Virus record (IMG/VR): IMGVR_UViG_3300002461_001209 | Origin: a virus | Length of the DNA: 64,000 bases | Direction: 5' to 3' (one strand) | Shown here: positions 1 through 18,527 of the stretch, piece by piece | How positions within the stretch are numbered: the first letter of the stretch is position 1 | How the letters are laid out: each line of letters opens with the position of its first letter | Notes under the pieces: generated by a model | The model's input: the letters and a program-made list of their open reading frames with translations, nothing else | Database searches by the model: none | What the model was told of the DNA's origin: nothing | Position numbers and translations under genes: made by a program

Positions 1-135
1 TGTAATGCAGCAGTTATTACCCCCAACAGCAATAGGGGCTTCTATGACAAATGATGATTTTTCAAAGGTTAATAAATCATCATTTACCCTTATGACTTTT
101 TCAAAAGAGTATTTGATAGAATGTGGATTATACAT
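1..135 (-). CDS. 5' part of a hypothetical protein running off the left edge (MYNPHSIKYSFEKVIRV...)
   Basis: ATG at 135-133, open for 45 codons to position 1; manual translation. Confidence 0.4.
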   Translation of the reverse strand, partial: MYNPHSIKYSFEKVIRVNDDLLTFEKSSFVIEAPIAVGGNNCCIT

Positions 136-269
136 AAATGAAATTTAATGTGATTAAGTGAGTTTTGTCAATTCAATGTGTGAATTTCTGTTCAAATAAA
201 TGTAAAATAAAGTAATTTCTCTTTTTTGTTATTTTTGATATAATTCAATTATGTATTTAGGAATTTAAT

Positions 270-989
270 ATGAAAATAAGAGAACATTTTAGTGAAAATT
301 ACGGCTTAGTAAATTATGTAGAAGTTGCTGCTATTGATATGAGCAAGGATAAAAGCCATTTAGTAGAGTTCCATCCTAAATTTGTATCATTTACAAAAAG
401 AAGGGGTGATGACTCAAGAATGGAGAAAATTAAAAACAATCCTCAGATAAGTGAGCATGATAAAGATGATTATGGTTACTTTTACTGCTCTGTATTTGAG
501 TTACCTTTAGAAGTGTGCAACAAAGATTGGCATATTGTGAACAAGGATTTTAAGCCAGATGATGAGTATCTATCAAATATAAAGAAAAAGAAATACTGTC
601 CTATAGCTGTTAGTCATGAAACATTTATCAATTGGTTTATTAAGATTTATCCATACCTTAATGATGAATGGAAGGAAAATAATAAAGAATATATGGCTGA
701 AATGGATAGAGTCATATTGGAGAACAATCGCAGGATGCTGCAAGGATTTAAAGAGGAAAATATCAAGGAAATTAGAGCAGCAGTAAAACTTGGTGCTGAT
801 ATCAATTTTAGTGAAAATGGAGCGTCCCCTTTGTTGTATTGCATAGAGGGTAAAAACATCAACTTGTTTAAATATCTTGTGAATAAATCAGTCAAAATTA
901 ATAGTGATGTTTTTGTAGATGAAAGCAACCCTATTTTTAATGAATTTAACACCTATCAATCAAGGTTGAAGAAAAAGATGAAAATATAA
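270..989 (+). CDS. hypothetical protein with a C-terminal ankyrin-like repeat
   Basis: LGADINFSENGASPLLYCIEGKNINLFKYLV resembles an ankyrin repeat; AGGA RBS; basic tail KKKMKI. Confidence 0.7.
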   Translation: MKIREHFSENYGLVNYVEVAAIDMSKDKSHLVEFHPKFVSFTKRRGDDSRMEKIKNNPQISEHDKDDYGYFYCSVFELPLEVCNKDWHIVNKDFKPDDEYLSNIKKKKYCPIAVSHETFINWFIKIYPYLNDEWKENNKEYMAEMDRVILENNRRMLQGFKEENIKEIRAAVKLGADINFSENGASPLLYCIEGKNINLFKYLVNKSVKINSDVFVDESNPIFNEFNTYQSRLKKKMKI

Positions 990-1061
990 GTCAGTTTTAA
1001 TTGAGATAATTGACTTTTATAGACTTTTCTAATAGATTGTTACTAAATTAAAGGTGATTCA

Positions 1062-1814
1062 ATGTTATTAAAAGAACTCGTTAACAATCAAGATTTACAA
1101 AAAACAGCCGTTTATGGTTTGGAAATCAATGAGCAAGATGTAGAGTTGGTTGACTCTCTACCAGAATCAATAGAGGAAGTAGGTCTTGTTTTAAAATTGG
1201 ACGCAGACTCCATGATTGATGAGTCATTACTTGATGTGTTGATAACTTTAAGACTTAAAAATATAGATGTTGTTTTGGAAGTTCCATCACAGTTGGTGGC
1301 TCAAAATAATGTTGAAATCAAGTACTTGCTACAACTGGCAAGTAATGCTGACTTTGCTGTTGCTTTCTTGCCTCCAGGTCATGCATTGGTAGGTGACTCA
1401 TTGACTGTTGAGCAGTATAAGCAAATTGTAAAAAATACAACTACTGAAATGCTGGCAAAACCTAACTTTGATAAATTTGTCTACCCTGTCTCAAGTTTCT
1501 TTGAGTATTTGATGTTGGAACAAATTTTATCTGAAGAAGATTTGAAAGAATTCAGACCAGAGAACGAATTTATTAAGGAAAACTTTGCATCTGTTTTGAC
1601 AAAGCAAGACAGTGATGATTTCAAGTCAGAAATAAGAGCATTGGTTCATCAGTTCTATGGTGGAAAAGAAGAGTTTACTATTTTCTCCAAGAGTCTTATT
1701 GAGTCATTGAGAGACAAAAGCAAGCAGATGTATAAAGAGCAAGTTGAGATTGATATTAGAAACAACCCTCAACAAGACGCAGAAAATCCAAATATTAACT
1801 CAAGTAGTAACTAA
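1062..1814 (+). CDS. acidic hypothetical protein
   Basis: 250 aa ORF, AAGGTG RBS, no recognisable motif. Confidence 0.7.
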   Translation: MLLKELVNNQDLQKTAVYGLEINEQDVELVDSLPESIEEVGLVLKLDADSMIDESLLDVLITLRLKNIDVVLEVPSQLVAQNNVEIKYLLQLASNADFAVAFLPPGHALVGDSLTVEQYKQIVKNTTTEMLAKPNFDKFVYPVSSFFEYLMLEQILSEEDLKEFRPENEFIKENFASVLTKQDSDDFKSEIRALVHQFYGGKEEFTIFSKSLIESLRDKSKQMYKEQVEIDIRNNPQQDAENPNINSSSN

Positions 1815-1907
1815 TCGTTTCATTTAGGTTGAAAACCTATTTTTTTCATATAAAATAAGTATATGAAGAGATTGGTTCTTGAGATTAATTTCTAAAGGAG
1901 ATTATAT

Positions 1908-3023
1908 ATGAAAAATACAGTTCAATTAGGTGCAGAGGTTCTATCACAAATGGTGACAGATGAAAAAATTGTTGGTTTTATGTCAGAACCGTTGAAAAAA
2001 AGAATTTCAGAAATAGGAATTGCTGCATTTTTAGCTATAACAACTGCATTTTCAGCAGGTGTGGCTCATGCAAGTGATAAGGACAGAGCGAGAAACCTTA
2101 CTTTGGGTGCTTCTACTTTCATGGGTATATTAGTAGACGGTGCCAAACCTAAAGACTTGCCTGTAGAGTGCCACAACATTCAAGGAATGAATGGCTGGAA
2201 AGTTGGTGGTGCAGGTGCTGCTGGTGGTATTTTTGGTAATCAAATTGGAAATGGTTCTGGAAATACTATTGCTACATTGGGTCTTGGTTTTGTGACATCT
2301 GCTGCTGTGGCTAGTCGTGAGCAAGATAGAATGATTGCTGAGTGCAACAATATATTGAGACAAAATGCAGAAAGAGATGCAGGATATAACCGTTATAACA
2401 ATTCATACAACAATGGTTATAATTCAGGGTATAACAATGCGCCACAGCCAGTTGCATATCCGACATACAACCCTAACCAGAAATATAATCCTATTAATGC
2501 AGATATATTGTATGAAACAAATGATGTAAACGGAAGGTCATTAATCGTTACAACAGAGAATAGCCCAGGTCTGAGTGCTCTGAAAGGGCAAAAAGTAGGA
2601 AGTCTCTCTGTGGAATCAGACCCAATTGTAAAGCGTGCTTTGGACATATCAAGTGACGGATTGGCTCAATCTTATGAGCAACTGGACAATAGTGCAAAGG
2701 TACTTCTTAACTATTTAAGAGGGGGTACATCTTCACAGAAAATTTCAAGATATGCTGTAACTGATGATGACTTGAGAGCTAATGAGTCTGTCAGAAGAAG
2801 CAATCAAAATGAAATCAGAAGAGCACAAGCTGCTTATGACGCAAGTTTTGTTAATTATGCACAGAAGAGATCTATGGCAGCAAACATCTATGACAATGCA
2901 GCGGTTGATGGATACAACATCACACAATATAGGGAGGTGCTTAACATCATGACACCACCTGAGTCTGTTGTTTTGGTCAATGGAGGAAAGAAAGTCAATA
3001 AATATGGTGTTATTCCTAGATAA
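1908..3023 (+). CDS. glycine-zipper 2TM domain protein with Y/N-rich linker
   Basis: VGGAGAAGGIFGNQIGNGSGNTIATLGLG glycine zipper; hydrophobic segment ending AHA; YNNSYNNGYNSGYNN tract; AGGAG RBS. Confidence 0.7.
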   Translation: MKNTVQLGAEVLSQMVTDEKIVGFMSEPLKKRISEIGIAAFLAITTAFSAGVAHASDKDRARNLTLGASTFMGILVDGAKPKDLPVECHNIQGMNGWKVGGAGAAGGIFGNQIGNGSGNTIATLGLGFVTSAAVASREQDRMIAECNNILRQNAERDAGYNRYNNSYNNGYNSGYNNAPQPVAYPTYNPNQKYNPINADILYETNDVNGRSLIVTTENSPGLSALKGQKVGSLSVESDPIVKRALDISSDGLAQSYEQLDNSAKVLLNYLRGGTSSQKISRYAVTDDDLRANESVRRSNQNEIRRAQAAYDASFVNYAQKRSMAANIYDNAAVDGYNITQYREVLNIMTPPESVVLVNGGKKVNKYGVIPR

Positions 3024-3115
3024 TCAACAAAAACTAAAATGAATATTAATTCTTTTAAAAGTCATTTATTTGACTTTTTTTGTTTTTACAACTATTTTTT
3101 ATAAAAAGGTGATAT

Positions 3116-3586
3116 ATGAGTAATAACTTGGCAGATTTAGCAGAATCCATCAATCATATAAGTTTAAATGATAAAGATTTAATGGATTGTGTTTTATCTT
3201 ATTCAAAGATTTTTTCTAAAGAATTATCGGAATCTCAGTTAGAGAAATTAGATGACTTCTTCACAAGTGAATTTTTTATTGAGCAATCAAAAACATGTGT
3301 AAGAGAGGCTATCGTATTAGCAATGCAAGCACTTACTCTAGATTCAAGTGTTAAGTTTTCATCACTGATGAAGCTTCATATCAATAAGGATAACCAAGAG
3401 TACAATATTGAAAATATATCCAGTATTGACGCTGAAAAAGAATTATTAAAAGAATTTTTCTCTGGGTTGAGAAAAGAGTATTTTACAAAAACTTATTCTC
3501 AAAATAAGGGACTGAAGAAGGTGACAAAAATCAGTGGTGATGTTCTTGATAACAGAAGATATGCTTTTGTAAATTATGTAAAATAA
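3116..3586 (+). CDS. hypothetical protein
   Basis: 156 aa ORF with AAGGTG RBS. Confidence 0.65.
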   Translation: MSNNLADLAESINHISLNDKDLMDCVLSYSKIFSKELSESQLEKLDDFFTSEFFIEQSKTCVREAIVLAMQALTLDSSVKFSSLMKLHINKDNQEYNIENISSIDAEKELLKEFFSGLRKEYFTKTYSQNKGLKKVTKISGDVLDNRRYAFVNYVK

Positions 3587-3589
3587 GGA

Positions 3590-4510
3590 TTGAATGTTTC
3601 AATGAAAAGTCTTAAAAAATTTGCCTCTCTCTCACTAATAGCCATTCCCATTTTGACCTATGCTCAAAATTTGGAAGAGTCTGGTCTTGTTGTTGATCCT
3701 GCTCAAAATCAATTGATGGGACCAGTGATTGATTTGTCTGTTGTTGGCAACCCTGCACAAGAAGAGGTGATAGAAGAAGTTTTGTTTGAGCAGGATGATA
3801 TTTTATCTACATACCAATACTGGGGACAAACAAGCAACAAGGAAAAAATATCAGAGTTCTTGTCTAATGGTCAAAATGTGAATGATGATTTTTTTGATGG
3901 AACCAATCTTTTAATTCTATCAAGTATGAGAAAGAATCAAGAACTATTTAATTTATCACTTGCGTATAAAGCCAATATTTCACACAAAAACAATGAAGGC
4001 AAAAATTTACTGCATTATGTTTTTTCTGATTTTAATCAAGTATTTTTTGATAATTTAAGAGATAAGGTAGGTTTGAAGAAAATAGATGAGTTGGCAAATG
4101 TAAAGGACAAATATGGAGCCACGCCTGCACACTATTATTTTTTATCAAGCAAGTTATCTGATGAAAAAATGGTAGAGTCATATATGTTCAAACAGATTAA
4201 CTTGGAAGACAAAAAAGGTTTGACACCAGGACACTATGCATTGAATTCACCCAATTGTATGAATTTGAATACCTGGCTAAAAGCAGGTGGAGATATAACC
4301 AAGAAAAATCAGGATGGTGTTTCTTTGGAAGAATTAATGTTTGATAAGTGCTCTGTTCATTCTGTTGTAAAAAACTTTAATTATATGACTGATAGTGGCA
4401 AGGCTAGAATTAATGATGTTTGTGCAAAAATAGGTTTAAGAGAAGACTCTGATATGGAAATTTTAGAGGATAATCAAATTAATCAATGCATAGTCAGAGA
4501 TAATATTTGA
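3590..4510 (+). CDS. ankyrin-repeat protein with probable signal peptide
   Basis: N-terminal basic plus hydrophobic segment ending TYA; ankyrin motifs GKNLLHY, GATPAHY, GLTPGHYA. Confidence 0.75.
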   Translation: MNVSMKSLKKFASLSLIAIPILTYAQNLEESGLVVDPAQNQLMGPVIDLSVVGNPAQEEVIEEVLFEQDDILSTYQYWGQTSNKEKISEFLSNGQNVNDDFFDGTNLLILSSMRKNQELFNLSLAYKANISHKNNEGKNLLHYVFSDFNQVFFDNLRDKVGLKKIDELANVKDKYGATPAHYYFLSSKLSDEKMVESYMFKQINLEDKKGLTPGHYALNSPNCMNLNTWLKAGGDITKKNQDGVSLEELMFDKCSVHSVVKNFNYMTDSGKARINDVCAKIGLREDSDMEILEDNQINQCIVRDNI

Positions 4511-4576
4511 TCTTATCTTTTTATTTAATATAATAATTACATAAGCAACAAATAAGCTTATTTTAGAGAGGCAGTT

Positions 4577-4759
4577 ATGAATAACAAGAAGGTAGGATTT
4601 TCAAAAAGTTTTTTAGATAAAATAAACAGTGTTCACGAGAGAGCAACTGATATATTTTCATCAATGGATGTTCGTGCAACATCATTGATTGATTTACACC
4701 CTGCCTCTGTTTTGAATAAAAGAATACAAGAAAAAAATAAAACAGGTAAAAAGATGTAA
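4577..4759 (+). CDS. small hypothetical protein
   Basis: 60 aa, GAGG RBS, followed by terminator. Confidence 0.5.
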   Translation: MNNKKVGFSKSFLDKINSVHERATDIFSSMDVRATSLIDLHPASVLNKRIQEKNKTGKKM

Positions 4760-4785
4760 TTGTCTTAATGGACCTAAGTTTTAAG

Positions 4786-4811
4786 AAAAGACCTTTTAGA
4801 AGGTCTTTTTT
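4786..4811. terminator. bidirectional intrinsic terminator
   Basis: AAAAGACCTT-TTAG-AAGGTCTTTT between convergent genes. Confidence 0.8.
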
Positions 4812-4814
4812 GTT

Positions 4815-5243
4815 TTAGTATTCAACATTCATTAGTTCAGATACAGTATCTGTGTGTCTCAATATGGCTTTTACGGTTGCTTTGAAATATGGTGCAGTTT
4901 CTTTCATACGAAATAGTATTTTCAAATTACCTTCACTTTGTTTTTTGAGATCTTTGAGTTTTGTGTAGTAGCTTGCATACTCTTCAAACCCCTCCATCTG
5001 AGTCATTACCTCATCTAGATAGAAAATATTGTTTTTAATTTTGTAATTGAGATTTTCTACATTTATTTTGATATTTTTATCAAGATTGTTGCTTATTTTG
5101 TCATTGATAAGCACTTTTTTGATTTTTTCAGTTTGTGAGAAGAATATTTCTGAGTAGTTTTTTTCAGAAATGACAGAAACAGACTCCAAATCATCCTTTG
5201 GTTTCACGAATAGGGACTTTAAAAACTTCCAGATTTTATTCAT
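4815..5243 (-). CDS. hypothetical protein
   Basis: 142 aa ORF ending at the bidirectional terminator. Confidence 0.65.
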   Translation of the reverse strand: MNKIWKFLKSLFVKPKDDLESVSVISEKNYSEIFFSQTEKIKKVLINDKISNNLDKNIKINVENLNYKIKNNIFYLDEVMTQMEGFEEYASYYTKLKDLKKQSEGNLKILFRMKETAPYFKATVKAILRHTDTVSELMNVEY

Positions 5244-5334
5244 TTTACTTTTTGTCTTGTTTCATTTACTGCTTATTTTTTCTCAAAATAAACTAAACAA
5301 AAAAAACAAAAATGTCCAATATTTAGAAAAACTT

Positions 5335-5409
5335 TGGAGCCATCAACAGGAATCGAACCTGTAGCCTTTGGTTTCGGAAACCAATACTCTTCCATTGAGT
5401 TATGACGGC
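5335..5409 (-). tRNA. trnR: tRNA-Arg(CCG)
   Basis: Full cloverleaf: GCCGTCA/TGATGGC acceptor, TTGGT-TTCCGAA-ACCAA anticodon arm, GGTTCGATTCC T arm, encoded CCA. Confidence 0.92.
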
Positions 5410-5415
5410 TTATGT

Positions 5416-5473
5416 TGGTCTCACAAGCAGGAATCGAACCTGTATCTAGTGCTTAGGAGGCACTCGTTCTACC
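5416..5473 (-). pseudogene. 5'-truncated tRNA-Arg(CCT)
   Basis: GGTAGAAC, AGTGC-CTCCTAA-GCACT, T arm and TTGTGAG-A-CCA are present; upstream sequence cannot supply a 5' acceptor strand. Confidence 0.75.
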
Positions 5474-7290
5474 GTAATTTAAAACGAAATCAAACTTTTT
5501 TCAAGTTTGGCTTAAAGCTTACAGCAAGCTCTATATTAAAACCCCAACATTAAAGTTCATAAACAGCTAATTTGCTAATATGAAGTATAATACTTATCAT
5601 ATATGATTTTCTATTCATGTTGTTTTTGTTTTAATAAAATTTTTTGTGATAATTTTTTATTTTTAATAATATTATCCCTCAACTCTTTCCAATAAATACC
5701 CAATTTCAAATTATTCCTTTCAGGTAAATTTGAAGTCTTAATGTATTTATTATTACTTGAGATTCTTTTTTCTATATGGTTTAAACTTATTGTTTTATCG
5801 TATTTTTCATTAGTCCTATTGTTAGTGGCTTTAATCATTATATGTTTTTTAAACAATCCTTTCCTTGCTATACATATTGCTGCACTGTGATGTATGCTTA
5901 TTCTATTTCTAGTAGAGTACTTTAAATAACCTATTAAGCTTGTGTATGCAGGATCAACTTCTATTATTTCTATAGAATTATCTATTGCTCTATTTTTTAT
6001 TAATTCTATTACTTTATTATAAGCAAAAGAATTCAATTGTATTTTTTTATTTTTAAAACTTTCACTATAGTTTAGCTGGATTTTCTTTAGATTAAAATCT
6101 AATTTTTCTATTACAATAGGCTTATTTAGATTGCTTCCTAATTTAATTAAATTTTTAATAGCTAAAGATATAGAATTAGTATTTTGATCTTTTGTGCCAT
6201 TTAAATTATAGTAAAAGTTATAAATATTTAATAAGTTACCTTTGTTATCTAAATTGGTAACTGCTAAATTATTTTGATTAATATCTACTCCTATACAGCC
6301 ATATTTTTTACTAGTAACAATGTTTTTTATCAAATTTTTTTCAAAGCTTATTGCAACAATATATTTATTCTTATGATTTTTTGAATTTTGTTTAATAATA
6401 TTGTATGTTAATGCCTGCCATAATTTTTTCTCTCTACCTTGATTATTTATGATTATTTGTTTTATTTTATCTGATTCATAATTTAAGTTAAATTGGATAT
6501 TAATATATTTGTCATCAATATTATTACATTTATGATTAATATTTATCCTCAGATTAAAAAGATTACCTTCAATATGAGTTATTTGAGCATTGCTGTTACC
6601 AGCAACTTCATCTTTACTACCTATTAATATAAAGTTTTTGTTTCTTTGGTAATTCCATTCTTTATACCAATCTTCATGATTTTTAAATTTAGTTTGAACA
6701 CTATTTGATTTTATTTTAAATTGCTCTCTAAAAAGATTATTGCTACCAAAACAAATTTTAATATTCCCCGTATTTCTAATTCTTTCTAAAATAATTAGTT
6801 TGTTTTTTAATTTATCAAGCCTTTTTTTATTAAATGCAATTTTAGATTGTAATTTAGCTTTTAATTTAGACTCTATACTGTTCAAATCCATTATTTTAAG
6901 TTTAGCCTTATATGTTTCATAAGTTTTTCTCTGCTTTAATATAGTTTTTTCTATAATATTTATTTTAAATTTGGTTTCATCCATATTTGTTTTATTTAGA
7001 GAAATTATTGATGAAACTTTACCATTTAATACTTTATAAATAGAATCAAAGTGTCTCCTACTAATTAAGTATTTGGATTGATATAATACACTAATATCTT
7101 TATACGGAATTTTTTTGATAAATAAATCAACATACATTCTATGCATTATGTTATTATAATGAATGGCAAAGCTATCTAGCTTAATTATTTGAGTTAATTC
7201 TAAATCTTTTGTTATCCCCGTTACAGTTTTCATAATTAATATATAATATTAATTATGAATTAAGTCAAATAATAGCTGAAGGCATATTTA
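5474..7290 (-). mobile_element. tnpB-only IS200/IS605- or IS607-like element; left boundary approximate
   Basis: tnpB-like gene, subterminal hairpins at 5491-5509 and about 5516-5530, abuts the truncated tRNA; no tnpA visible. Confidence 0.6.
5611..7233 (-). CDS. tnpB: TnpB-related RuvC-domain protein with coiled-coil insertion
   Basis: RuvC-I IGVDIN, RuvC-II IVIEKLDF, VDPAYTS, GSKDEVAGN, C-terminal SIHHSAAICIARK typical of long TnpB-related proteins. Confidence 0.8.
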   Translation of the reverse strand: MKTVTGITKDLELTQIIKLDSFAIHYNNIMHRMYVDLFIKKIPYKDISVLYQSKYLISRRHFDSIYKVLNGKVSSIISLNKTNMDETKFKINIIEKTILKQRKTYETYKAKLKIMDLNSIESKLKAKLQSKIAFNKKRLDKLKNKLIILERIRNTGNIKICFGSNNLFREQFKIKSNSVQTKFKNHEDWYKEWNYQRNKNFILIGSKDEVAGNSNAQITHIEGNLFNLRININHKCNNIDDKYINIQFNLNYESDKIKQIIINNQGREKKLWQALTYNIIKQNSKNHKNKYIVAISFEKNLIKNIVTSKKYGCIGVDINQNNLAVTNLDNKGNLLNIYNFYYNLNGTKDQNTNSISLAIKNLIKLGSNLNKPIVIEKLDFNLKKIQLNYSESFKNKKIQLNSFAYNKVIELIKNRAIDNSIEIIEVDPAYTSLIGYLKYSTRNRISIHHSAAICIARKGLFKKHIMIKATNNRTNEKYDKTISLNHIEKRISSNNKYIKTSNLPERNNLKLGIYWKELRDNIIKNKKLSQKILLKQKQHE

Positions 7291-7363
7291 GTTGATGAAA
7301 TTAATTGACTGTAATTTATAATTAATTATTATTAATTAAAATTTGATAAGAAAATACTATATT

Positions 7364-9067
7364 ATGAGCAATAAAAAAGACATTAAAGACTCTTTAACGG
7401 ATTTTATTATAAATAAAAGTTATGATGTTGCAGTTTTAAAAGGAACTTGGGGAATTGGTAAAACTTTTTTATGGAAAGAAATAGAAAGTGAAATTATAAA
7501 AAATAAAAAATTTCCCTCTAATACTTTTATGTACATATCACTTTTTGGAATGAATGATATAAATGAAGTAAAAAATAAATTGATTTTCTCGAAAAAATCT
7601 ACTGGTTGGCTCATGAATACATTTAAAGGTTTAGAAGATATAGATTTAGCAGGATTACCAGTTTCAGCACTTAAATATCCTGTAATATCACTATTTGAAT
7701 ATATGTTAAATAAAAAACTAAAAGAAAAGGTGATTATTTTTGATGATATTGAAAGAAGGAGCAACGAATTTAATATGTTATCTTTTTTAGGATTAATTAA
7801 TGAATTAAAAAGTAAAAATAATCAAATTGTTATCATATTAAACGAAGAAAAAATACTAATGAGTGATAATTTATCTAGTACAGATTGGCAAGTCTTTAAA
7901 GAAAAGATAATTGATATAGAGTTTAAATTAGATGTTAATGAAGAAGACTGTTTAAAGATAGTTAAAAATATTAATTTTAATGAATATAAATTAATAAGAC
8001 CAATTTATAAAAAAATTTTAGATAGAGCATTAACTAATTTAAATTGTAAAAATATTAGAGTTTTAAATTTAATTTTTAAAAGATTGTATAAAATTTTAAT
8101 GCTATTTCGTGAAATATTAAATAAGAAAAATAAAGATGATTTTGAAATTATTCTTCAGAACATTGCTAAGATGTGGTTTGTATATTTTGATAGTAATAAA
8201 GTAAATCGTGAAGAAATTATAAATTATGAAATTATTTTAAAATATATGGAAATTTATCCTAACATTAAAAGTAGAAATAATTATTTTTATAATAAAAGCA
8301 ATAATTTAGATCCATTGATGAAAGATTTAGAAGAAGATAAAATAGTCAATTTGTTATTAAATTTAGATTTTAATCTTAACATAGAGATTGTTAAAATAAT
8401 TTCTATGTATATTAAAACAGGATATTTAGATGAATTTACTTTAAAAAATGTTTTAAAAAATGAAGCTATAAATATAGAATTAGAATATAATAGAATGTGT
8501 ATATATAATTTCAATAATGATGTCGCAATTAATAAAAATATAACAGCAGAAATTATAATAAAAAAAGCTAAGTTTTTTTCAAATTTAGAGTGCTCTAATT
8601 ATGATGTTTTAGCAGATTTTTATATGACACTAAAAAAAATTGATAATTCTTCTAAAGAAATGATTTTTGATAGATTACTTCAATTAATGAGAGAACGTAA
8701 GTGGAAGCCAAATTTAAAAATATTAAAAGATTGCCAAAAGATTGAAGATGAGTGGAAAGAAATTCAGAAAATATTCCCTTCTGAATTAGATAAGATGTCA
8801 CTTTTAATTTCTTACTATAGTATGGGGTATATTGAATCTGTAGATAATATTTTAAATAAATTAACTGTAGAGTCTTTAAGGGATAAATTATTAAATCTAA
8901 ATAATGTAGATCTTCAAAACTTTTTAATTTTTATTAAAAGTATACAGGGTGCAGAACGATTAAAAAATTTTAATAACACATTTAAAAATTTATATGAAGA
9001 TACAACTAATAAAAGTGAAGATAAACTAAAAAATATATTTTTGTTAGCGGGGTATAATTCTTTCTAA
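7364..9067 (+). CDS. KAP-family P-loop NTPase
   Basis: Walker A GTWGIGKT, Walker B VIIFDDIER, FKEKIID motif; ATG 7364 preferred over TTG 7343. Confidence 0.75.
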   Translation: MSNKKDIKDSLTDFIINKSYDVAVLKGTWGIGKTFLWKEIESEIIKNKKFPSNTFMYISLFGMNDINEVKNKLIFSKKSTGWLMNTFKGLEDIDLAGLPVSALKYPVISLFEYMLNKKLKEKVIIFDDIERRSNEFNMLSFLGLINELKSKNNQIVIILNEEKILMSDNLSSTDWQVFKEKIIDIEFKLDVNEEDCLKIVKNINFNEYKLIRPIYKKILDRALTNLNCKNIRVLNLIFKRLYKILMLFREILNKKNKDDFEIILQNIAKMWFVYFDSNKVNREEIINYEIILKYMEIYPNIKSRNNYFYNKSNNLDPLMKDLEEDKIVNLLLNLDFNLNIEIVKIISMYIKTGYLDEFTLKNVLKNEAINIELEYNRMCIYNFNNDVAINKNITAEIIIKKAKFFSNLECSNYDVLADFYMTLKKIDNSSKEMIFDRLLQLMRERKWKPNLKILKDCQKIEDEWKEIQKIFPSELDKMSLLISYYSMGYIESVDNILNKLTVESLRDKLLNLNNVDLQNFLIFIKSIQGAERLKNFNNTFKNLYEDTTNKSEDKLKNIFLLAGYNSF

Positions 9068-9072
9068 TTAAG

Positions 9073-9098
9073 AAGAGCCTGCAATTTGCAGGCTCTTT
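9073..9098. terminator. bidirectional terminator
   Basis: AAGAGCCTGCA-ATT-TGCAGGCTCTT between convergent genes. Confidence 0.8.
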
Positions 9099-9102
9099 AG
9101 TT

Positions 9103-9327
9103 TCATGCTAATGTTTCTAATTTTGCATTTTGAATAGATTCAACATGTTTTCTAATCCATCTCATAAACAGCATGGCTTTATCCTGATTAGCAAATGCCC
9201 CATCACCTGTGTCTTCTATAGGAACAGGAAATTCAAACCCACATTCAGTGACATACCAAAGTTCTTTCTTTTGATATCTTAAAAATTTAACCTGCTTGTT
9301 GTTGCTAACCATCTCTTTAATGTTCAT
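9103..9327 (-). CDS. small conserved-looking phage-type hypothetical protein
   Basis: 74 aa, AAGGAG RBS, ELWYVTECGFEFPVPIEDTGDG. Confidence 0.7.
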   Translation of the reverse strand: MNIKEMVSNNKQVKFLRYQKKELWYVTECGFEFPVPIEDTGDGAFANQDKAMLFMRWIRKHVESIQNAKLETLA

Positions 9328-9328
9328 T

Positions 9329-9463
9329 TTATATCTCCTTTAAATTTGAACTAACACCTCTACTGCACCATGCTCCATATGTCACACATAAAAGGTTCCA
9401 TATGTTTGATTTAAACTTGTTTTGTTCGTTTTCTTCTTCCCATTTTTTTATAGATGTTCTCAT
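9329..9463 (-). CDS. 44 aa hypothetical ORF (MRTSIKKWEEENEQ...)
   Basis: Manual translation; lies between tRNA-Glu and the 74 aa gene. Confidence 0.35.
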   Translation of the reverse strand: MRTSIKKWEEENEQNKFKSNIWNLLCVTYGAWCSRGVSSNLKEI

Positions 9464-9492
9464 TTTATTCTCTTTTCTTTTTAGTTATAATT

Positions 9493-9568
9493 TGGCGTCC
9501 TCAGCGGGGATCGAACCCGCATTACAAGATTGAAAGTCTTGTGTCCTAACCGATTAGACGATGAGGAC
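9493..9568 (-). tRNA. trnE: tRNA-Glu(TTC)
   Basis: GTCCTCA acceptor, CAAGA-CTTTCAA-TCTTG, GGTTCGATCC, CCA. Confidence 0.92.
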
Positions 9569-9575
9569 CAAATTT

Positions 9576-9650
9576 TGGCACCACCTAAAGGATTCGAACC
9601 CTTATTCCCAGATTCGTAATCCAGTATATTATCCATTATATGAAGGTGGT
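9576..9650 (-). tRNA. trnR: tRNA-Arg(ACG)
   Basis: ACCACCT/AGGTGGT acceptor, CTGGA-TTACGAA-TCTGG, A20 in D loop, CCA. Confidence 0.9.
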
Positions 9651-9657
9651 ATAATTT

Positions 9658-9741
9658 TGGAGTCGCATGGGGGAATCGAACCCCAGCCCGAAAGCGTCAC
9701 CTTGAAAGGGTGATGACCGTTACCCGCAGTCAACATGCGAC
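9658..9741 (-). tRNA. non-canonical 8/4 tRNA with UUC anticodon and variable arm
   Basis: 8-bp acceptor GTCGCATG/CATGCGAC, 4-bp T stem GGGG/CCCC, TCACC-CTTTCAA-GGTGA, variable arm GCT-TTCG-GGC, U73, CCA; 84 nt. Confidence 0.8.
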
Positions 9742-9749
9742 ATTATGCT

Positions 9750-9825
9750 TGGCGTCCCCTAGCGGATTCGAACCGCTGTTCTTGCCGTGAAAGGGCAATG
9801 TCCTTGGCCTCTAGACGAAGGGGAC
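9750..9825 (-). tRNA. trnE: tRNA-Glu(TTC), canonical bacterial type
   Basis: GTCCCCTTCGTCTAGAGGCCAAGGAC..., TTGCC-CTTTCAC-GGCAA, CCA. Confidence 0.95.
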
Positions 9826-9843
9826 TTAATATTTACTTACCTG

Positions 9844-9928
9844 TGGTGGGTATGGTAGGAATCGAACCTACTCACCCGAAGGAACAGATTTACAGTCTGC
9901 CGCAACTCTCCAACTTTGCCGCATACCC
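9844..9928 (-). tRNA. trnY: tRNA-Tyr(GTA)
   Basis: GGGTATG/CATACCC acceptor, GCAGA-CTGTAAA-TCTGT, long variable arm, CCA. Confidence 0.93.
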
Positions 9929-9978
9929 ATTACAGGTAAGTAAACATCAACATAAACAAGCTTAAATTTTTAAAGAGC

Positions 9979-10006
9979 AAAAAGAAAAGGCACCTTACGG
10001 TGCCTT
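9979..10006 (-). terminator. intrinsic terminator upstream of the tRNA cluster (attenuator 3:4 hairpin)
   Basis: AAGGCACC-GTAA-GGTGCCTT followed by TTCTTTTT on the minus strand. Confidence 0.85.
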
Positions 10007-10028
10007 GATCATCTGCTTCTCTATCTTC

Positions 10029-10127
10029 TTAGATATTTGCCCATTGTGATAAACGAGCAGAAGCGAATGAGACACCTTTAGTGTTCATTTCCTCTCGTTC
10101 ATAATAATAAGCATTTGCGAAGTTCAT
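10029..10127 (-). CDS. putative attenuator leader peptide MNFANAYYYEREEMNTKGVSFASARLSQWANI
   Basis: AGGA RBS, 32 codons, TAT-TAT-TAT-GAA-CGA-GAG-GAA run, located between promoter and terminator. Confidence 0.75.
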   Translation of the reverse strand: MNFANAYYYEREEMNTKGVSFASARLSQWANI

Positions 10128-10160
10128 TTTATTTTCCTGTTTAAATTTTTCAATATCGTT

Positions 10161-10189
10161 ATTATCGTTCAAATATTTTCTTTTGTCAA
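10161..10189 (-). promoter_or_regulatory. sigma70-like promoter for the leader and tRNA cluster
   Basis: TTGACA-17 nt-GATAAT. Confidence 0.75.
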
Positions 10190-10202
10190 CACATTTTTTA
10201 AT

Positions 10203-10607
10203 TTATTTTTTAAATTTTCTTTTTGCCTGGTTTTGAGGTGTATTAAACTGTGTTACCATTTGTTGAATATCTTCTATCTTATACTCTTTATTAATATTGA
10301 AACTGACTGCAACACAAAACTCATCAGATATGAACTCATGTTCTTTGCAATCATCAAATGATATTACATCTCCTGGCTTTATGACTATTGTATCACCATC
10401 TATGAAAAATTGTCCAGTACCTTGAATCATCCATAAAACAGACATACCATTACCATCTATGTGAGGCTCTACATCTTTGAATACTAGAACAGTTGCATTA
10501 TTTTGGGAAGTAATGTGTGAAGCATATCCTTCATCTATTGTATCTTGATGTTCTTGTAAATCAAAGGAATAGCTGATTTGAGGTGTTTCTGTAAAAAGTA
10601 TTTTCAT
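10203..10607 (-). CDS. cupin-fold protein
   Basis: VEPHIDG...LWMIQGTGQFFIDGDTIVIKPGDVISFDDCKEH cupin motifs. Confidence 0.7.
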   Translation of the reverse strand: MKILFTETPQISYSFDLQEHQDTIDEGYASHITSQNNATVLVFKDVEPHIDGNGMSVLWMIQGTGQFFIDGDTIVIKPGDVISFDDCKEHEFISDEFCVAVSFNINKEYKIEDIQQMVTQFNTPQNQAKRKFKK

Positions 10608-10681
10608 AAGATTATTTTACTTTAAATCTGACTTTGATCAAGGTCTTGTGTTATAATGATGTTTTTTAATGAGGATAAAAT

Positions 10682-11023
10682 ATGGAAAGATATCTCGGTG
10701 AAGTTGAAGTGAAAATCGAAAATACTCCTTATGCAAATTTTAAGCCAAATGACTGGGCTATGCTCTTTATAGAAAGATATGCTCAAATTGATGGTGCACA
10801 CCATAAGCAGTGGGTTCTTGATCAGGTGGCTAGAATTCTAAAGGGTACAAAAGTCAATATTAAATTGGCAAAATGGGATGATGGTCAAGAAGAGTATCGT
10901 ATTGACCTAGATGAGCCATCAAAACAATATTTAGATTGGGTCGTTGAGATGAAAGGCAAATGGATTGAAAGTAAAGACTATACAGGTTGGGAATATAGTT
11001 ATGATGAGGGAATTGCACCGTAA
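10682..11023 (+). CDS. phage-type hypothetical protein
   Basis: YAQIDGAHHKQWVLDQVARIL; GAGG RBS; TGtTATAAT extended -10 upstream. Confidence 0.7.
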   Translation: MERYLGEVEVKIENTPYANFKPNDWAMLFIERYAQIDGAHHKQWVLDQVARILKGTKVNIKLAKWDDGQEEYRIDLDEPSKQYLDWVVEMKGKWIESKDYTGWEYSYDEGIAP

Positions 11024-11056
11024 ATACAAATAAAAATCCAGAATTGAAAGTGTAAT

Positions 11057-11085
11057 AAAAAAAAGAGCCTAAAGGCTCTTTTTTT
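11057..11085. terminator. bidirectional terminator
   Basis: A8-GAGCCT-AA-AGGCTC-T7 between convergent genes. Confidence 0.85.
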
Positions 11086-11087
11086 AT

Positions 11088-11630
11088 TTAAATCCCAGGT
11101 TTGGGTTTAGGTGTGTTTTTCTTTGCTGGCTTTAAGATGAAGTTAATCTCTTTACCACCATAGCTAATTTTTGTATCCAATTCACCATAGTTTTCTACAG
11201 TTTTAAGAACTTTTTCAATAAACTCATCGTTGATGGATTTCATCTGTGTTTCTCTGAAAGTTTTAAATCTGATGACGATTTTAACCTTATGTGATTCCTC
11301 AAGGAATTCATTGACTTTTTTCATCTTAAGATCAAAGTCATTGTCACCAATTGATGGACGCACCTGAATGGTTTTAATGTCGTGGCTTCTGTTTTTGAAA
11401 TCAAGTTTTTCTTGTTTCTTTTTCTCATGATAAAGCCAAGAATCAAACTTTACAATTTTGCATGTTGCATAGTCTTTGTTTTCACCAACTTGCATTAAAT
11501 CTAAATCTTGCTCATGTGCGAGCTTGATGGCGTCGTGAAATGACATTTCACCAACTTTTTCTCCCTCTTCTGAGAGTAAAAGAATTCTTTGCGCTCTGAT
11601 TTGATTGTTTACAAAATATTTTTTATCCAA
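11088..11630 (-). CDS. infC: translation initiation factor IF-3
   Basis: NNQIRAQRILLL, A..LA..QDLDL, CKI..F, IKTIQVRPSIGDNDFDLKMKKVNEFLEE.HKVKI; TTG start with GGAG RBS. Confidence 0.9.
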   Translation of the reverse strand: MDKKYFVNNQIRAQRILLLSEEGEKVGEMSFHDAIKLAHEQDLDLMQVGENKDYATCKIVKFDSWLYHEKKKQEKLDFKNRSHDIKTIQVRPSIGDNDFDLKMKKVNEFLEESHKVKIVIRFKTFRETQMKSINDEFIEKVLKTVENYGELDTKISYGGKEINFILKPAKKNTPKPKPGI

Positions 11631-11732
11631 GTGTTTTTCTCCGTGTTAATGATTAATTATATACTGTTTTTCTATCAAAAACAATATGATTGTGTTGTTT
11701 TAAAACAAATTGTTGATGTTTTTTCATCAAAA

Positions 11733-12650
11733 TTAGTAGGCACTGAAATTATTTTGAACCATCCATACGGCTAAATCAATTGCATTGATGTTCTTGGTTT
11801 CTTCCTTGTCTTGCAATGTTTGCAAAATAGGTGCCATTTTACCATCCCATTGTCTCTTCATGATATCTGGTGCTATGAGAGATAACGGCTTTTGTATAAG
11901 AGGATTGTAGAACTTCTTTGCCATAACTTGCTTATTTCTAATAAGTTTTGAGCAAGCCCATTGTATTTCAGTTTCTTGGGGTTTGAAGTTTCTGTATTGT
12001 GGATGGTTTTTGACACTTGTAATGAACTCTTCCACCAAGAAAAGTTCTGTACTTTTGACATAATTCTTTATTTCTGCTTCAAGCCATTCTTCTTTTTGTT
12101 TTTTAAATTCTTCAGTATTGTTTTGTCCACCCACACCAGGCATAGATAAAATACCGTTTTGCTGATAGTTATTATTGCCACCTCCACCAGAGAGAATGTT
12201 GGTGCCAAACATATTGTCCAATTCTGCTACTTCGTCCTTGGGTGCAGAATGCATTTGTGGTTTATTTAGTGGGTCTTCAACCCTTTGAGTTCTTGTTGGT
12301 GAGTCCTCACTTCTTGCAGGAGTCCCTTGATTGTTTGATATGGTGAGGCTTCTTGATCTGTTGTTGAACACAGGAAATTCATCATTATCATCAACAAGCC
12401 CACATGATTCCCATTTGCCTTGTGGGTAAGCAAGAACAGGCACTTTAAAAATTTTTTCACTATCTCCTGCTCCTGCTGCTCCTTTGCTCATGGTTTGATA
12501 AAAGATGATAGATCCATCTTCCTTTATCTCATAACTCTCAGCATAGCATATGACCGGATTTTGGCTTGGTCTATTTTTCTGCTGAAAGGAGGTTTTAGCC
12601 TGCTCAGTGAGGAAAAGTGCAAATTTAAATTTAGGCTTCAGGAGTTGCAT
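11733..12650 (-). CDS. hypothetical protein, two domains joined by a low-complexity linker
   Basis: 305 aa ORF. Confidence 0.7.
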   Translation of the reverse strand: MQLLKPKFKFALFLTEQAKTSFQQKNRPSQNPVICYAESYEIKEDGSIIFYQTMSKGAAGAGDSEKIFKVPVLAYPQGKWESCGLVDDNDEFPVFNNRSRSLTISNNQGTPARSEDSPTRTQRVEDPLNKPQMHSAPKDEVAELDNMFGTNILSGGGGNNNYQQNGILSMPGVGGQNNTEEFKKQKEEWLEAEIKNYVKSTELFLVEEFITSVKNHPQYRNFKPQETEIQWACSKLIRNKQVMAKKFYNPLIQKPLSLIAPDIMKRQWDGKMAPILQTLQDKEETKNINAIDLAVWMVQNNFSAY

Positions 12651-12659
12651 TTTTTACTT

Positions 12660-13004
12660 TTATTGTGCTTCTTTGATTTGAAAATATTTTTCAACGAAAA
12701 TAATATCATTTTCATTGCTCTTGAGTTCGCCGCCTTGCTCTTCTTCTTTGATAATCATGTTAACACGTTTACTAAGAAGTCCTTTTTTAATACCTGCTTT
12801 ATCTGCAACTTTTTCAAGAGCCTCTTTAAATGCTTCTTGATCCATTGCAATTTTTTTCTTTTGAAAAATCAAATCTTCAATAGATTTTGCTATTTCTTTT
12901 GTCATGATGACTTCAGATGTAGGTGTCTCAGGTAGTTCGTCTTTTTTAGCCATTAGGTTCTCCAAATTGTCATATATCTTATGTAATGGAATAAAAGTTG
13001 TCAA
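12660..13004 (-). CDS. small helical protein, possibly a GapR/T4 DsbA-like DNA-binding protein
   Basis: IEDLIFQKKKIAMDQEAFKEALEKVADKAGIKKGLLSKRV pattern; weak resemblance only. Confidence 0.4.
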   Translation of the reverse strand: MTTFIPLHKIYDNLENLMAKKDELPETPTSEVIMTKEIAKSIEDLIFQKKKIAMDQEAFKEALEKVADKAGIKKGLLSKRVNMIIKEEEQGGELKSNENDIIFVEKYFQIKEAQ

Positions 13005-13044
13005 ATAATTTGTATTCTTTAAAAAAATTATTTATCATATTTCA

Positions 13045-13803
13045 ATGGAAAACTGGGAAAACCTCAATAAAATTTTAACCATGGAAAGAGCAGCCTCTGA
13101 CAGGATGATATTGCTGTCTCAGCAATTGATAGCTCACTCTTTAAATGGAGAGAAAAATGAAGCTAAAAAGCTGTTAAAACAAGGTGCTGTGCTCAATTGT
13201 TTTGAAGAGCATTTAACTCCTTTGATTGCATGTATGGAGTCAGGTCACTACGATTTGGCAAAATTCTATGTAAGAGCAAATGCTTCCATAACATACATGC
13301 CTAATCCTAACTTTATCAATGCTCTTTGGTATGCATTGATAAATAAAAAACATAATTTTCTTGAACTGTTCATTGAGAGTAAGTGCCCACTAACCAGACA
13401 TCCTGAGACCAAAAATCCATGTTTGATTTTTGCAACCATAAATTCAGATTTACAAGCGGTCATAACACTACTGAGACACTATAATATCAAGGTTAATGAA
13501 AGAGATGGTGCAGGCAATACAGCAATACATCACAATGTGGCTAAAGAAAATCCCTCAAATGATGATATAGAGATTGGTCGCTTACTGATTGCTGCTGGTG
13601 CAGATACCAATCTTCCTAATCTGGACGGTAAGACTCCTAAAGACTTGGCTGTTGATTTTGCTGCAAGAGCTATGTTGTTGTCTGGAGTATTGGAAGAGAC
13701 ATTGCCTCATAAGGATGAGTTGATTGAATCCATTGAAAATGAGGTTGAGAATAATGCTCAGCCACCAGAGGTAAAGCCTGGTGCTAAGAAATTGAAAATT
13801 TAA
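13045..13803 (+). CDS. ankyrin-repeat protein
   Basis: HLTPLIAC, GNTAIHH, AGADTNLPNLDGKTPKDLA; tail AKKLKI. Confidence 0.85.
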   Translation: MENWENLNKILTMERAASDRMILLSQQLIAHSLNGEKNEAKKLLKQGAVLNCFEEHLTPLIACMESGHYDLAKFYVRANASITYMPNPNFINALWYALINKKHNFLELFIESKCPLTRHPETKNPCLIFATINSDLQAVITLLRHYNIKVNERDGAGNTAIHHNVAKENPSNDDIEIGRLLIAAGADTNLPNLDGKTPKDLAVDFAARAMLLSGVLEETLPHKDELIESIENEVENNAQPPEVKPGAKKLKI

Positions 13804-13818
13804 TTTCAGGTTTTACAA

Positions 13819-14643
13819 TTATTTGCCACTTAAAAAATCACTTGGACTGATTTCTTTTTTGCTACCGAACTGTGGTGTAATTGTTTTGCTTGATTTTTCC
13901 TGAGTCTGTCTTGCAGTAATTTTCTCTACTGGTTTGACAGGTGAAGTCTTCTCTAAGACACGTGTTGCTTGAGGTGTGGAGGCAATGCTGGCGTTTGAGT
14001 TACTAGCTGACTGAGATGGGGTTTGTACTGTATTGTTGTTAATAACGGGAGTTGCAATATTGCTGGTTGTACTGTTTGGTAGAGCCACTGGTAATTTTGT
14101 GTCACCTATTGAAGCAGGTGGTTTGGGTCCATTAACTGTAGCAAGAAGATTTTCGTTAAGATTGATCTCTGGCTTTATAGAAATACTGTCTATTTCTTTC
14201 TTTAGTGCTAAAAGATTTTTGTTGTGGTTGTTAACCATTTCTTTGAGTTTTTGAATTTGACTTGTATCGTTGGATTTTTCAATATTTTGCAACATGGCTG
14301 AGACTGTTTTTAATTGAGATTCTTCCTGTGAAAACTCTTGTTTTAATATAAGAAGTCTTCTCTCATCTCTTGCTTTTTGCTCAGCAGATATGGTGTTGGC
14401 TTGAACTATTGCGCTGGCAGTGGAAGCGCCAAGTGGTGCTAAAGGATTGGGCTTGTTGAGTATGGTTCTCTTGTCTATCTCAGCCAAATTTGTTTTTTCA
14501 CACTTTAAATCTTTTTGTGTCTGTCTTTCATTGACATAGAGTATATTGCCTTCACTGTTTGTGCATTTGAAGATGACATTTTGTGCATATGTTAAGTTGC
14601 TGGCTGAAAGAATGGCGAGGGATATAAGAGTCTTTTTATTCAT
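13819..14643 (-). CDS. secreted DUF4124-like protein with coiled coil and P/S/T-rich tail
   Basis: Signal peptide ending TYA, IFKCTNSEGNILY, EQKARDERRLLILKQE. Confidence 0.65.
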   Translation of the reverse strand: MNKKTLISLAILSASNLTYAQNVIFKCTNSEGNILYVNERQTQKDLKCEKTNLAEIDKRTILNKPNPLAPLGASTASAIVQANTISAEQKARDERRLLILKQEFSQEESQLKTVSAMLQNIEKSNDTSQIQKLKEMVNNHNKNLLALKKEIDSISIKPEINLNENLLATVNGPKPPASIGDTKLPVALPNSTTSNIATPVINNNTVQTPSQSASNSNASIASTPQATRVLEKTSPVKPVEKITARQTQEKSSKTITPQFGSKKEISPSDFLSGK

Positions 14644-15248
14644 TTTGCTTGTTCCTTTAAAATTTTAACAGAATTTAAAACAGCATTGGGATATTTATCT
14701 TTACCTAAAGATCCATTGTATCTGCCTAAAGCTCTGTGTATGTTTCCTTTCTCTATATCTATATAATGTCTTAAAATAGTGCAACCATATCGCAGATTTG
14801 TTCTGAGATGAAATAGATTATGATTTTTTTCTCCTATAATGTCAATCCAAAAGGGCATAATTTGCATATAGCCTCTAGCACCTACTGAGCTTATGGCATA
14901 TTTTTTAAAGTTGCTCTCCACTTTTATAAGTCCTAAAATAAGGTCTGGATCTAGCCCTGCACGTGTGGCTTCGTAATGTATTGTAACCAAGAAGTTAATT
15001 GCCTCTTCTTCGTCTATAAAGCGTTTTTTAATATAGTTAAGTCTTGGTACTATCCATGTTTGCTTCTCTTGATCGTTCATAAAACTTGAAAATATTGGCT
15101 TTTGATCTGAAATGGAGGCAGACATCATTTGTTTTGTTGCTGCACTGAGCACCTCATAGCGTTGATTGCCTGCTATAGATAAGCTAGGTAATAAATACAA
15201 AGCAGTTGATAGTGCAATCAAATTAATAAAGGTCTTTAATTTGATCAT
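14640..15248 (-). CDS. lytic transglycosylase (SLT domain) with signal peptide
   Basis: LIKVESNFKKYAISSVGARGYMQIMPFW, NLRYGCTILRHY, ALGRYNG; ATG 15248 preferred over the ORF-track start. Confidence 0.9.
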   Translation of the reverse strand: MIKLKTFINLIALSTALYLLPSLSIAGNQRYEVLSAATKQMMSASISDQKPIFSSFMNDQEKQTWIVPRLNYIKKRFIDEEEAINFLVTIHYEATRAGLDPDLILGLIKVESNFKKYAISSVGARGYMQIMPFWIDIIGEKNHNLFHLRTNLRYGCTILRHYIDIEKGNIHRALGRYNGSLGKDKYPNAVLNSVKILKEQAK

Positions 15249-16236: not shown

Positions 16237-16338
16237 AATTCACTATATAAAACATATAGAAATTATGTCAATTTTTTTTAAATTTGATAATTTGTGAAAA
16301 TTTAATATATTGATTTTATTATTTTGAAAGAACAACAT

Positions 16339-18167: not shown

Positions 18168-18200
18168 TATTGGTGTAAAATCGGCTCAGGAGAAAGTCTT

Positions 18201-18518
18201 ATGAATAAAAATCTAAAAGAATTTGTAGAAAGACAGGAAATAGATTCAATCAAAGAATTCGTAAAAGAAAACGGAGAGGCTTGCCTTTTTGAAAATGATG
18301 AGACTGGCAAAAGTTTACTTTATTATGCATTGCAAAACAATGTAGATAGAGGAAGAGTTTTGGTGGTTATGCAATATTTGCTCAACATGGGTGTAGATCC
18401 TAGCTCCGTTGATAGCTCTTTCAAGAGTGCTTTGGATTATGCAAAAGAGTATGGCAACATGCCAGCAATGGCTTTGATAGGACAAGCTATCAATAAAAGA
18501 ATGATTGAAAATCAGTAA
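18201..18518 (+). CDS. small ankyrin-repeat protein
   Basis: GKSLLYYA, MGVDPSSVDSSFKSALDYAKEYGN. Confidence 0.75.
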   Translation: MNKNLKEFVERQEIDSIKEFVKENGEACLFENDETGKSLLYYALQNNVDRGRVLVVMQYLLNMGVDPSSVDSSFKSALDYAKEYGNMPAMALIGQAINKRMIENQ

Positions 18519-18527
18519 TTGATTTTC

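What the first reader, a model, noticed from the sequence alone, without database searches (positions are those of the whole stretch)
5416..7290. tnpB element ends exactly inside tRNA-Arg(CCT), so the predicted guide is tRNA sequence
Seen: about 135 nt downstream of the tnpB stop, past two hairpins (AGCTT-GCTGT-AAGCT; CAAACTT-GAAAA-AAGTTTG), the minus strand switches at ...AATTAC|GGTAGAACG into the D loop of a tRNA-Arg(CCT) whose 5' end is missing. Established: TnpB uses an RNA from the element's right end, with the adjacent flank as guide, and IS607 elements recombine at GG dinucleotides. Inference: the guide is GGTAGAACGAGTGCCTCC..., which would target intact tRNA-Arg(CCT) alleles. The 5' tRNA piece is not visible at the other end, implying a later deletion or insertion.
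Basis: partly seen in the sequence, partly recalled or inferred. Interest (0 to 1): 0.6.

Follow-up and report, generated by a model that had tools for sequence, protein, structure and literature searches.

The report
Stranded TnpB transposon inside tRNA gene
A known kind of jumping gene that carries an RNA-guided nuclease landed inside an arginine tRNA gene and then lost its transposase, so its guide RNA now reads as tRNA sequence; intact copies of that tRNA lack the flanking motif this family uses, so it probably cannot cut them.

Summary
Observation confirmed. The junction is the exact right end of an IS607 family: relatives with 55-62% identical TnpB, many beside a serine recombinase, end at the same GG before 26 other flanks. 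Two sister genomes carry the empty site, an intact tRNA-Arg(CCT). Here 3.6 kb (tnpB plus a KAP NTPase gene) replaces the tRNA's 5' 16 nt and upstream spacer; the left end and tnpA are gone.

- The GG belongs to the scaffold, so the guide starts at 5471.
- The third RuvC residue is H448, a clade-wide D-to-H change as in published clade RIIIr-4, not decay.
- Intact alleles offer TGGA or CGGA next to the target, whereas 17 of 18 family insertion sites have GGG.

Unexpected: copy-specific changes in the near-invariant element end fold over guide nt 1-9 (post hoc, p about 0.003-0.02), suggesting a muted guide. Three relatives also abut tRNAs, but the enrichment is not convincing without this case. 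The scan has noted TnpA-less TnpB in jumbo phages, and a TnpB in a tRNA gene, on other DNA. New member of a known kind.

The parts
5611..7233 (-). tnpB, 540 aa, intact; RuvC D317-E376-H448; no C4 zinc finger
   Evidence: fold matches Cas12k/Cas12f/TnpB
7240..7268 (-). putative leaderless tnpB promoter (-35 at 7268-7263, 17-nt spacer, -10 at 7245-7240, start codon 6 nt later)
   Evidence: same geometry in 10 of 12 relatives; the -10 here is off-consensus and the scan did not list it; inferred
5472..5590 (-). omega-RNA scaffold and element right end (5' limit unknown); stems at 5587-5556, 5531-5515, 5509-5491
   Evidence: alignment and consensus fold of 15 copies; four both-sides-changed pairs in this copy
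5472..5473 (-). GG core dinucleotide: last bases of the element, equal to G18-G19 of the tRNA D loop
5480..5488 (-). scaffold segment altered in this copy and complementary to guide nt 1-9 (5471-5463)
   Evidence: prediction only
5456..5471 (-). predicted guide (16 nt; 20 nt would reach 5452), same sense as the tRNA
   Evidence: position by analogy to CboIStron; no RNA data
5416..5471 (-). 3' remnant of tRNA-Arg(CCT), from position 20a to CCA; A20 absent; T-stem pair broken by a G-to-A change at 5443
5335..5409 (-). intact tRNA-Arg(CCG), formerly the second gene behind the lost promoter
7364..9067 (+). KAP-family P-loop NTPase, 567 aa, absent from both empty alleles; sits where left end, tnpA and tRNA 5' part would be
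   Evidence: Pfam PF07693; PADLOC PDC-S49 N-terminal match, E 5e-19
9073..9327 (-). 74-aa ORF and its terminator-like hairpin: the left anchor of synteny with the empty alleles

Best explanation
This is a stranded IS607-family insertion. An autonomous element (serine recombinase TnpA plus TnpB) recombined into the GG of the D loop of this replicon's own tRNA-Arg(CCT) gene (boundary and empty site shown; enzyme inferred from relatives). Later events removed the left end, tnpA, the tRNA's 5' 16 nt and its putative promoter, and a KAP NTPase gene now fills that place (end state shown; order inferred). tnpB, its own promoter and a folded omega-RNA remain, so a TnpB RNP carrying a tRNA-sense guide is probably made (inferred). 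The guide is tRNA only because that is the flank. It most likely does not license cutting of intact alleles: the adjacent motif is TGGA instead of GGG and the seed is predicted to fold back on the scaffold. Read-through from the tnpB promoter may now supply tRNA-Arg(CCG) (inferred).
For: Right end shared with 26 other insertions; one protein sequence (P0012) occurs with six different right flanks and TnpA upstream. Left flanks end in GG in 18/18 and GGG in 17/18; the next base is T in 24/27. Empty alleles L216 and L286. No TnpA and no left end in the window (left-end alignment score 27 against a shuffle mean of 30). The same erosion down to the tnpB promoter occurs in copies with non-tRNA flanks (L222, L223, L224). 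28/28 distinct host-type tRNA(CCT) segments and both sisters have GGA before the protospacer. An uncompensated T-stem change at 5443 fits decay. tRNA flanks are 3/26 without this case against 2.5-4.5% expected (p 0.03-0.11). Seed pairing is 0.94, against 0.07 with the consensus end.
Against: The ORF and catalytic residues are intact and the scaffold has four compensatory changes, so the RNP has been under selection at some point. This TnpB is the longest branch of its clade (1.26 against a median of 0.14, quick tree), so its TAM may differ. Loss of A20 happens to bring the target motif to three of four matches with TGGG. The remnant is no more diverged from sister alleles than the functional neighbour tRNA (2-4/56 against 5-8/75), which fits a recent insertion or constraint on the guide.
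Confidence: 0.6

Rival explanations
1. Active homing element. TnpB has relaxed its TAM to accept TGGA, cuts empty tRNA-Arg(CCT) alleles of co-resident sister replicons, and the tnpB-KAP block is copied in by recombination between the 74-aa ORF and the tRNA 3' half. The KAP NTPase hitchhikes.
For: Intact ORF, promoter and compensated scaffold without TnpA; homologous flanks on both sides in sisters; guide matches sisters at 15/16; loss of A20 shifts the register towards TGGG; two other TnpA-less copies sit sense-wise inside tRNA genes (L007, L027/L031).
Against: Family insertion motif is GGG and the related CboTnpB strictly needs TGGG; sister mismatches fall at guide positions 1 and 9; the seed is predicted to be sequestered; D-E-H activity is inferred from conservation, not shown (PMC10691335).
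Confidence: 0.2
2. Domesticated anti-host effector. The replicon uses TnpB to cut or block the tRNA-Arg(CCT) gene of a Burkholderiales host, by cleavage or as a TldR-like roadblock; the seed hairpin tunes specificity.
For: The 16-nt guide matches exactly in 5 of 301 Burkholderiales genomes, 20/20 in those read, which is better than either sister allele.
Against: The host is unknown. The match follows from ordinary tRNA conservation, since sister L286 has nearly the same sequence. Motif is TGGA/CGGA in every case. The replicon lost its own CCT tRNA while 12% of its Arg codons are AGG. No orthologous locus was found in another lineage. The L007 target was not found in 61 genomes of the class.
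Confidence: 0.1
3. The RNA, not the nuclease, is what is kept. The element end was remodelled to supply a stand-in D-stem, giving a tRNA-like 3' module, and the locus is retained for transcription and processing of tRNA-Arg(CCG).
For: Four of the nine new pairs lie in the register of the lost D stem; the shared putative promoter is lost while tRNA-Arg(CCG) stays intact with compensated stems.
Against: No acceptor stem can form (three of seven positions unpaired, three wobble); A20, the main Arg identity element, is missing (PMC9976931); this does not explain an intact 540-codon ORF.
Confidence: 0.1

Closest known systems
IS607-family elements with TnpB, CboIStron (Zedaveinyte et al., bioRxiv 10.1101/2023.11.20.567912)
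   Same: Serine recombinase TnpA in autonomous relatives, GG core, G-rich insertion motif (DGGG here, TGGG there), scaffold ending in CGG, guide taken from the right flank.
   Different: No group I intron (left end only about 60 nt before tnpA); TnpB is 540 aa, D-E-H, without zinc finger; this copy lacks left end and tnpA; flank is a tRNA.
TnpB major clade RIIIr-4 (Altae-Tran et al. 2023, PMC10691335)
   Same: RuvC-III Asp replaced by His, no C4 zinc finger, represented in viruses.
   Different: Clade placement was not tested with their reference sequences; partner here is a serine recombinase rather than an RHH/MazE protein; longer N-terminal helical region.
Non-autonomous tnpB-only (IS1341-like) derivatives
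   Same: tnpB with its own promoter and omega-RNA persisting without transposase.
   Different: The left end is also gone, so trans-mobilisation is not possible; only homing by recombination remains. Comparison rests on general knowledge.
TldR repressors (Wiegand et al., bioRxiv 10.1101/2023.11.30.569447)
   Same: TnpB without transposase whose guide matches a cellular gene.
   Different: TldRs are nuclease-dead and conserved with partner genes; here the catalytic residues equal those of mobile relatives and no conserved locus was found. Only the abstract was read.

Membership tests
IS607 family | Serine recombinase TnpA (MerR-HTH plus resolvase) upstream of tnpB | tested here: not met
   Absent from the window; present in close relatives such as L008-L024 and L225. 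This copy is a derivative, not an autonomous member.
IS607 family | Ends at a GG core without target duplication or inverted repeats | tested here: met
   Right end ends in GG at 5473-5472; left flanks of relatives GG in 18/18.
IS607 family | Left end present | tested here: not met
   No match above shuffles in 7234-9500.
TnpB / OMEGA | RuvC-containing TnpB/Cas12-like fold | tested here: met
   NCBIfam NF040570 and TIGR01766 hits below their cut-offs; Foldseek hits to Cas12k and Cas12f, E down to 3e-7, on a model of pLDDT 69; Atlas cluster named TnpB-related.
TnpB / OMEGA | Conserved structured right-end RNA with a sharp scaffold-guide boundary | tested here: met
   conservation drops right after the GG in 27 insertions.
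TnpB / OMEGA | RNA is made, bound by TnpB and directs cleavage | not testable with these tools
   Needs RIP-seq and cleavage assays.
TnpB / OMEGA | Empty site presents the cognate TAM next to the guide match | tested here: not met
   TGGA/CGGA in 30/30 intact alleles against DGGG inferred from family insertion sites; the TAM of this protein itself is unmeasured.
TnpB clade RIIIr-4 | RuvC-III Asp-to-His and no C4 zinc finger | tested here: met
   H448 is invariant in 51 homologues and aligns with Asp in distant relatives P0113-P0120; no CxxC pairs.
TnpB clade RIIIr-4 | Phylogenetic placement among the published representatives | not tested
   Reference sequences not retrieved.
IStron | Group I intron that splices the element out | tested here: not met
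   No Rfam intron hit in window 1-20000; relatives have only about 60 nt between left end and tnpA.
TldR | Inactivated RuvC in a clade fixed beside partner genes | tested here: not met
   Same D-E-H as mobile relatives; single locus.

The most novel reading that the evidence does not exclude
A transposase-less TnpB in a large phage-like replicon has been tuned, by a one-base register shift and a naturally evolved seed-blocking hairpin, into an RNA-guided effector against tRNA-Arg(CCT) genes of its host or of rival replicons, and tRNA genes are a recurrent target of such stranded copies.
Probability: 0.13. Interest if true: 0.8.

Novelty: new member of a known kind. Interest (0 to 1): 0.42.

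Why it matters
As the best reading stands, it is a well-resolved natural case of what happens to a TnpB whose guide lands on a conserved essential gene type: empty alleles, both family ends, an inferred TAM and a possibly self-muted guide are all in hand. The family also gives a ready test of an open point: D-E-H, zinc-finger-less TnpBs are assumed active from conservation (PMC10691335), and the mobile relative P0012, with six insertion sites, predicts a DGGG TAM. If the rival readings hold, phage-like elements would be using RNA-guided nucleases against tRNA genes; I found no description of that in the papers searched.

Tried and rejected
Whole genome not held, so a second CCT tRNA or a tnpA elsewhere in the replicon cannot be excluded.

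No close TnpB relatives or tRNA alleles in IMG/VR or GenBank phages. The right-end pattern hits in viral contigs showed no left end or TnpA and looked like chance matches.

Chimera idea rejected: after L216 alone the remnant looked host-like in its 5' part and replicon-like in its 3' part, but sister L286 has the same bases, so it is the lineage's own tRNA.

Inactive-RuvC idea rejected. IStron-like splicing rejected. KAP NTPase as cargo inside the element is not supported: no left end lies beyond it.

Systematic tRNA targeting not shown: 4/27 flanks; Fisher p 0.13-0.27 for TnpA-less against TnpA-intact copies, 0.04-0.11 if only sense insertions count, chosen post hoc. In 115 distant family loci only 5 loose T-arm motif hits, none clearly a tRNA.

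No empty allele found for the tRNA-Tyr case. A long-range helix between the scaffold 5' part and the 3' tail was considered by eye and lacks covariation. The AlphaFold model is poor around residues 428-463, so active-site geometry could not be checked. The careful tree did not finish; only the quick tree was used. One script timed out and four calls failed on arguments or handles.

Full report
Observation. On the minus strand an intact 540-codon ORF (7233-5611) is followed by two hairpins and, 139 nt after the stop, a GG (5473-5472) that runs into the 3' 56 nt of a tRNA with a CCT anticodon and CCA end, then an intact tRNA-Arg(CCG).

The protein and its family. Profile hits are weak, but about 50 metagenomic proteins are 55-62% identical and the predicted fold matches Cas12k/Cas12f/TnpB. 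Many relatives lie directly behind a MerR-HTH/resolvase TnpA, which makes this an IS607 family. One protein sequence, P0012, occurs with six different right flanks, so the family is mobile and its ends can be read off. The RuvC residues are D317, E376 and H448. The His is invariant in 51 homologues, mobile ones included, and aligns with Asp in distant relatives. Asp-to-His at RuvC-III plus loss of the zinc finger defines clade RIIIr-4 of Altae-Tran et al. (PMC10691335), who infer activity from conservation. The missing third acidic residue is therefore a clade trait, not decay.

The boundary. In 27 distinct insertions conservation stops right after the terminal GG (AG in one), and the window junction is in this register. 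Left flanks end in GG in 18/18 and GGG in 17/18; the base after the right end is T in 24/27. In CboIStron the scaffold ends in CGG, the last G does not pair with the target, and TnpB needs TGGG. The guide has the same sense as the tRNA, so it could address the gene but not the tRNA molecule.

The empty site. Two sister genomes (L216, L286; 83-87% identical in the neighbouring ORF) carry the 74-aa ORF, a terminator-like hairpin, a 100-120 bp spacer (with a sigma-70-like promoter match in L216), intact tRNA-Arg(CCT) and tRNA-Arg(CCG). In the window 3.6 kb (5474-9072) replaces the spacer and the first 16 nt of the tRNA. It holds tnpB and, divergently, a KAP NTPase that matches candidate defence system PDC-S49. 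No TnpA or left end is present. The same erosion, stopping at a leaderless tnpB promoter, is seen in copies with non-tRNA flanks. The remnant differs from L286 at two positions, one of which breaks a T-stem pair.

Can it hit intact alleles? Both sisters and all 28 distinct host-type segments have an A between the D-loop GG and the protospacer. This is A20, the main arginine identity element (PMC9976931). It is absent at the junction: either it was deleted after insertion at GG|A, or the target carried an A-to-G change that made a canonical GGG|T site. Sequence cannot tell these apart. Either way intact genes present TGGA or CGGA, not GGG. The sisters also mismatch guide position 1 or 9. Five of 301 Burkholderiales genomes match the 16-nt guide exactly, which follows from tRNA conservation; the host is unknown.

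The omega-RNA. The two best-aligned stems are kept, with four pairs changed on both sides in this copy, so the RNA was under structural selection along this long branch. The last 21 nt are almost invariant in 26 relatives, yet this copy has four changes there, three of them at positions fixed in all 26. With them 5488-5480 pairs with guide nt 1-9: predicted pairing 0.93-0.95, the highest of 27, against 0.07 with the consensus end (0.42 with the longest scaffold). Four random substitutions reach this in 5/1500 trials, random bases at the same sites in 33/1500, shuffled guides in 1-10/500. I noticed this after the fact, other copies reach 0.8-0.9 by chance, and it is a folding prediction without protein, so it is a lead. 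It would fit selection to mute a guide that matches an essential gene type. Cis inhibition of TnpB by its own RNA has a precedent (PMC10278001).

Is tRNA targeting recurrent? L007 (no TnpA, both ends, canonical GGG|T site in a tRNA-Arg(TCT)), L027/L031 (no TnpA or left end, D loop of tRNA-Tyr) and L010 (autonomous, antisense at the CCA end of tRNA-His) also abut tRNAs. Without the discovery case that is 3/26 against 2.5-4.5% of G-rich sites lying in tRNAs in this AT-rich window (p 0.03-0.11). G-rich target preference plus dispensable tRNA genes can explain it.

What the replicon is. It is not established. The 74-aa ORF has relatives in jumbo phages (RsoM2USA, XacN1, GAP32), and a lone IF3 and tRNA clusters fit that. 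No structural genes were seen in the proteins scanned, relatives of the element lie on contigs up to 1.3 Mb, and an earlier scan note calls the genome bacterial. I call it phage-like. The 22 contigs with the identical protein show the same neighbourhood where displayed and are not independent evidence.

Verdict. Shown: boundary, family, empty allele, loss of left end and tnpA, D-E-H triad, TAM mismatch against the family motif. Inferred: RNA production, TAM of this protein, muting, read-through to tRNA-Arg(CCG). Best reading: stranded IS607/TnpB insertion with a by-default tRNA guide that probably does not cut (0.6). Rivals: homing with relaxed TAM (0.2), host tRNA-gene targeting (0.1), retention for RNA or promoter function (0.1). 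New member of a known kind; interest 0.42.

Noticed in passing
L007:5830-7750: TnpA-less copy with both ends, inserted at a canonical GGG|T site in the variable loop of a tRNA-Arg(TCT); both tRNA halves are visible, so TAM and guide are fully predictable. A different intact tRNA-Arg(TCT) lies at L007:9468-9542.
   Followed up: partly
L031:4725-4815 (same as L027): TnpA-less, left-end-less copy whose right end (AG instead of GG) runs into the D loop of a tRNA-Tyr(GTA) lacking its 5' part: the same anatomy as the window, in an independent lineage. No empty allele found.
   Followed up: partly
L010:3016-3106: Autonomous copy inserted antisense at the CCA end of a tRNA-His in a tRNA cluster.
   Followed up: no
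window:7364-9067: Low-GC KAP NTPase matching PADLOC PDC-S49 over its N-terminal half; nearest relatives only 38-39% identical; a 322-aa form (P0123) is in the same cluster.
   Followed up: partly
window:26661-57691: Array of about 35 tandem paralogues built from a short Trp-Asp/Asn-Val-Ser repeat (DUF285/BspA-like from memory; not scanned).
   Followed up: no
window-wide: 27 of 65 ORFs of 150 aa or more end in (I/M/L/V)-K-I, and unrelated proteins show similar endings; possibly a C-terminal targeting signal.
   Followed up: no
window:48882-49769: 295-aa ORF on the opposite strand inside the repeat array that looks like a DDE transposase by eye.
   Followed up: no
window:11088-11630: Divergent IF3 outside the usual ribosomal-protein operon, as in several jumbo phages.
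   Followed up: partly
L225:6336-6410; L244, L245, L253: tRNA calls with a CUA (amber) anticodon in related large contigs.
   Followed up: no
L006:1630-2988: A canonical zinc-finger TnpB lies 3 kb from a decayed copy of this family.
   Followed up: no
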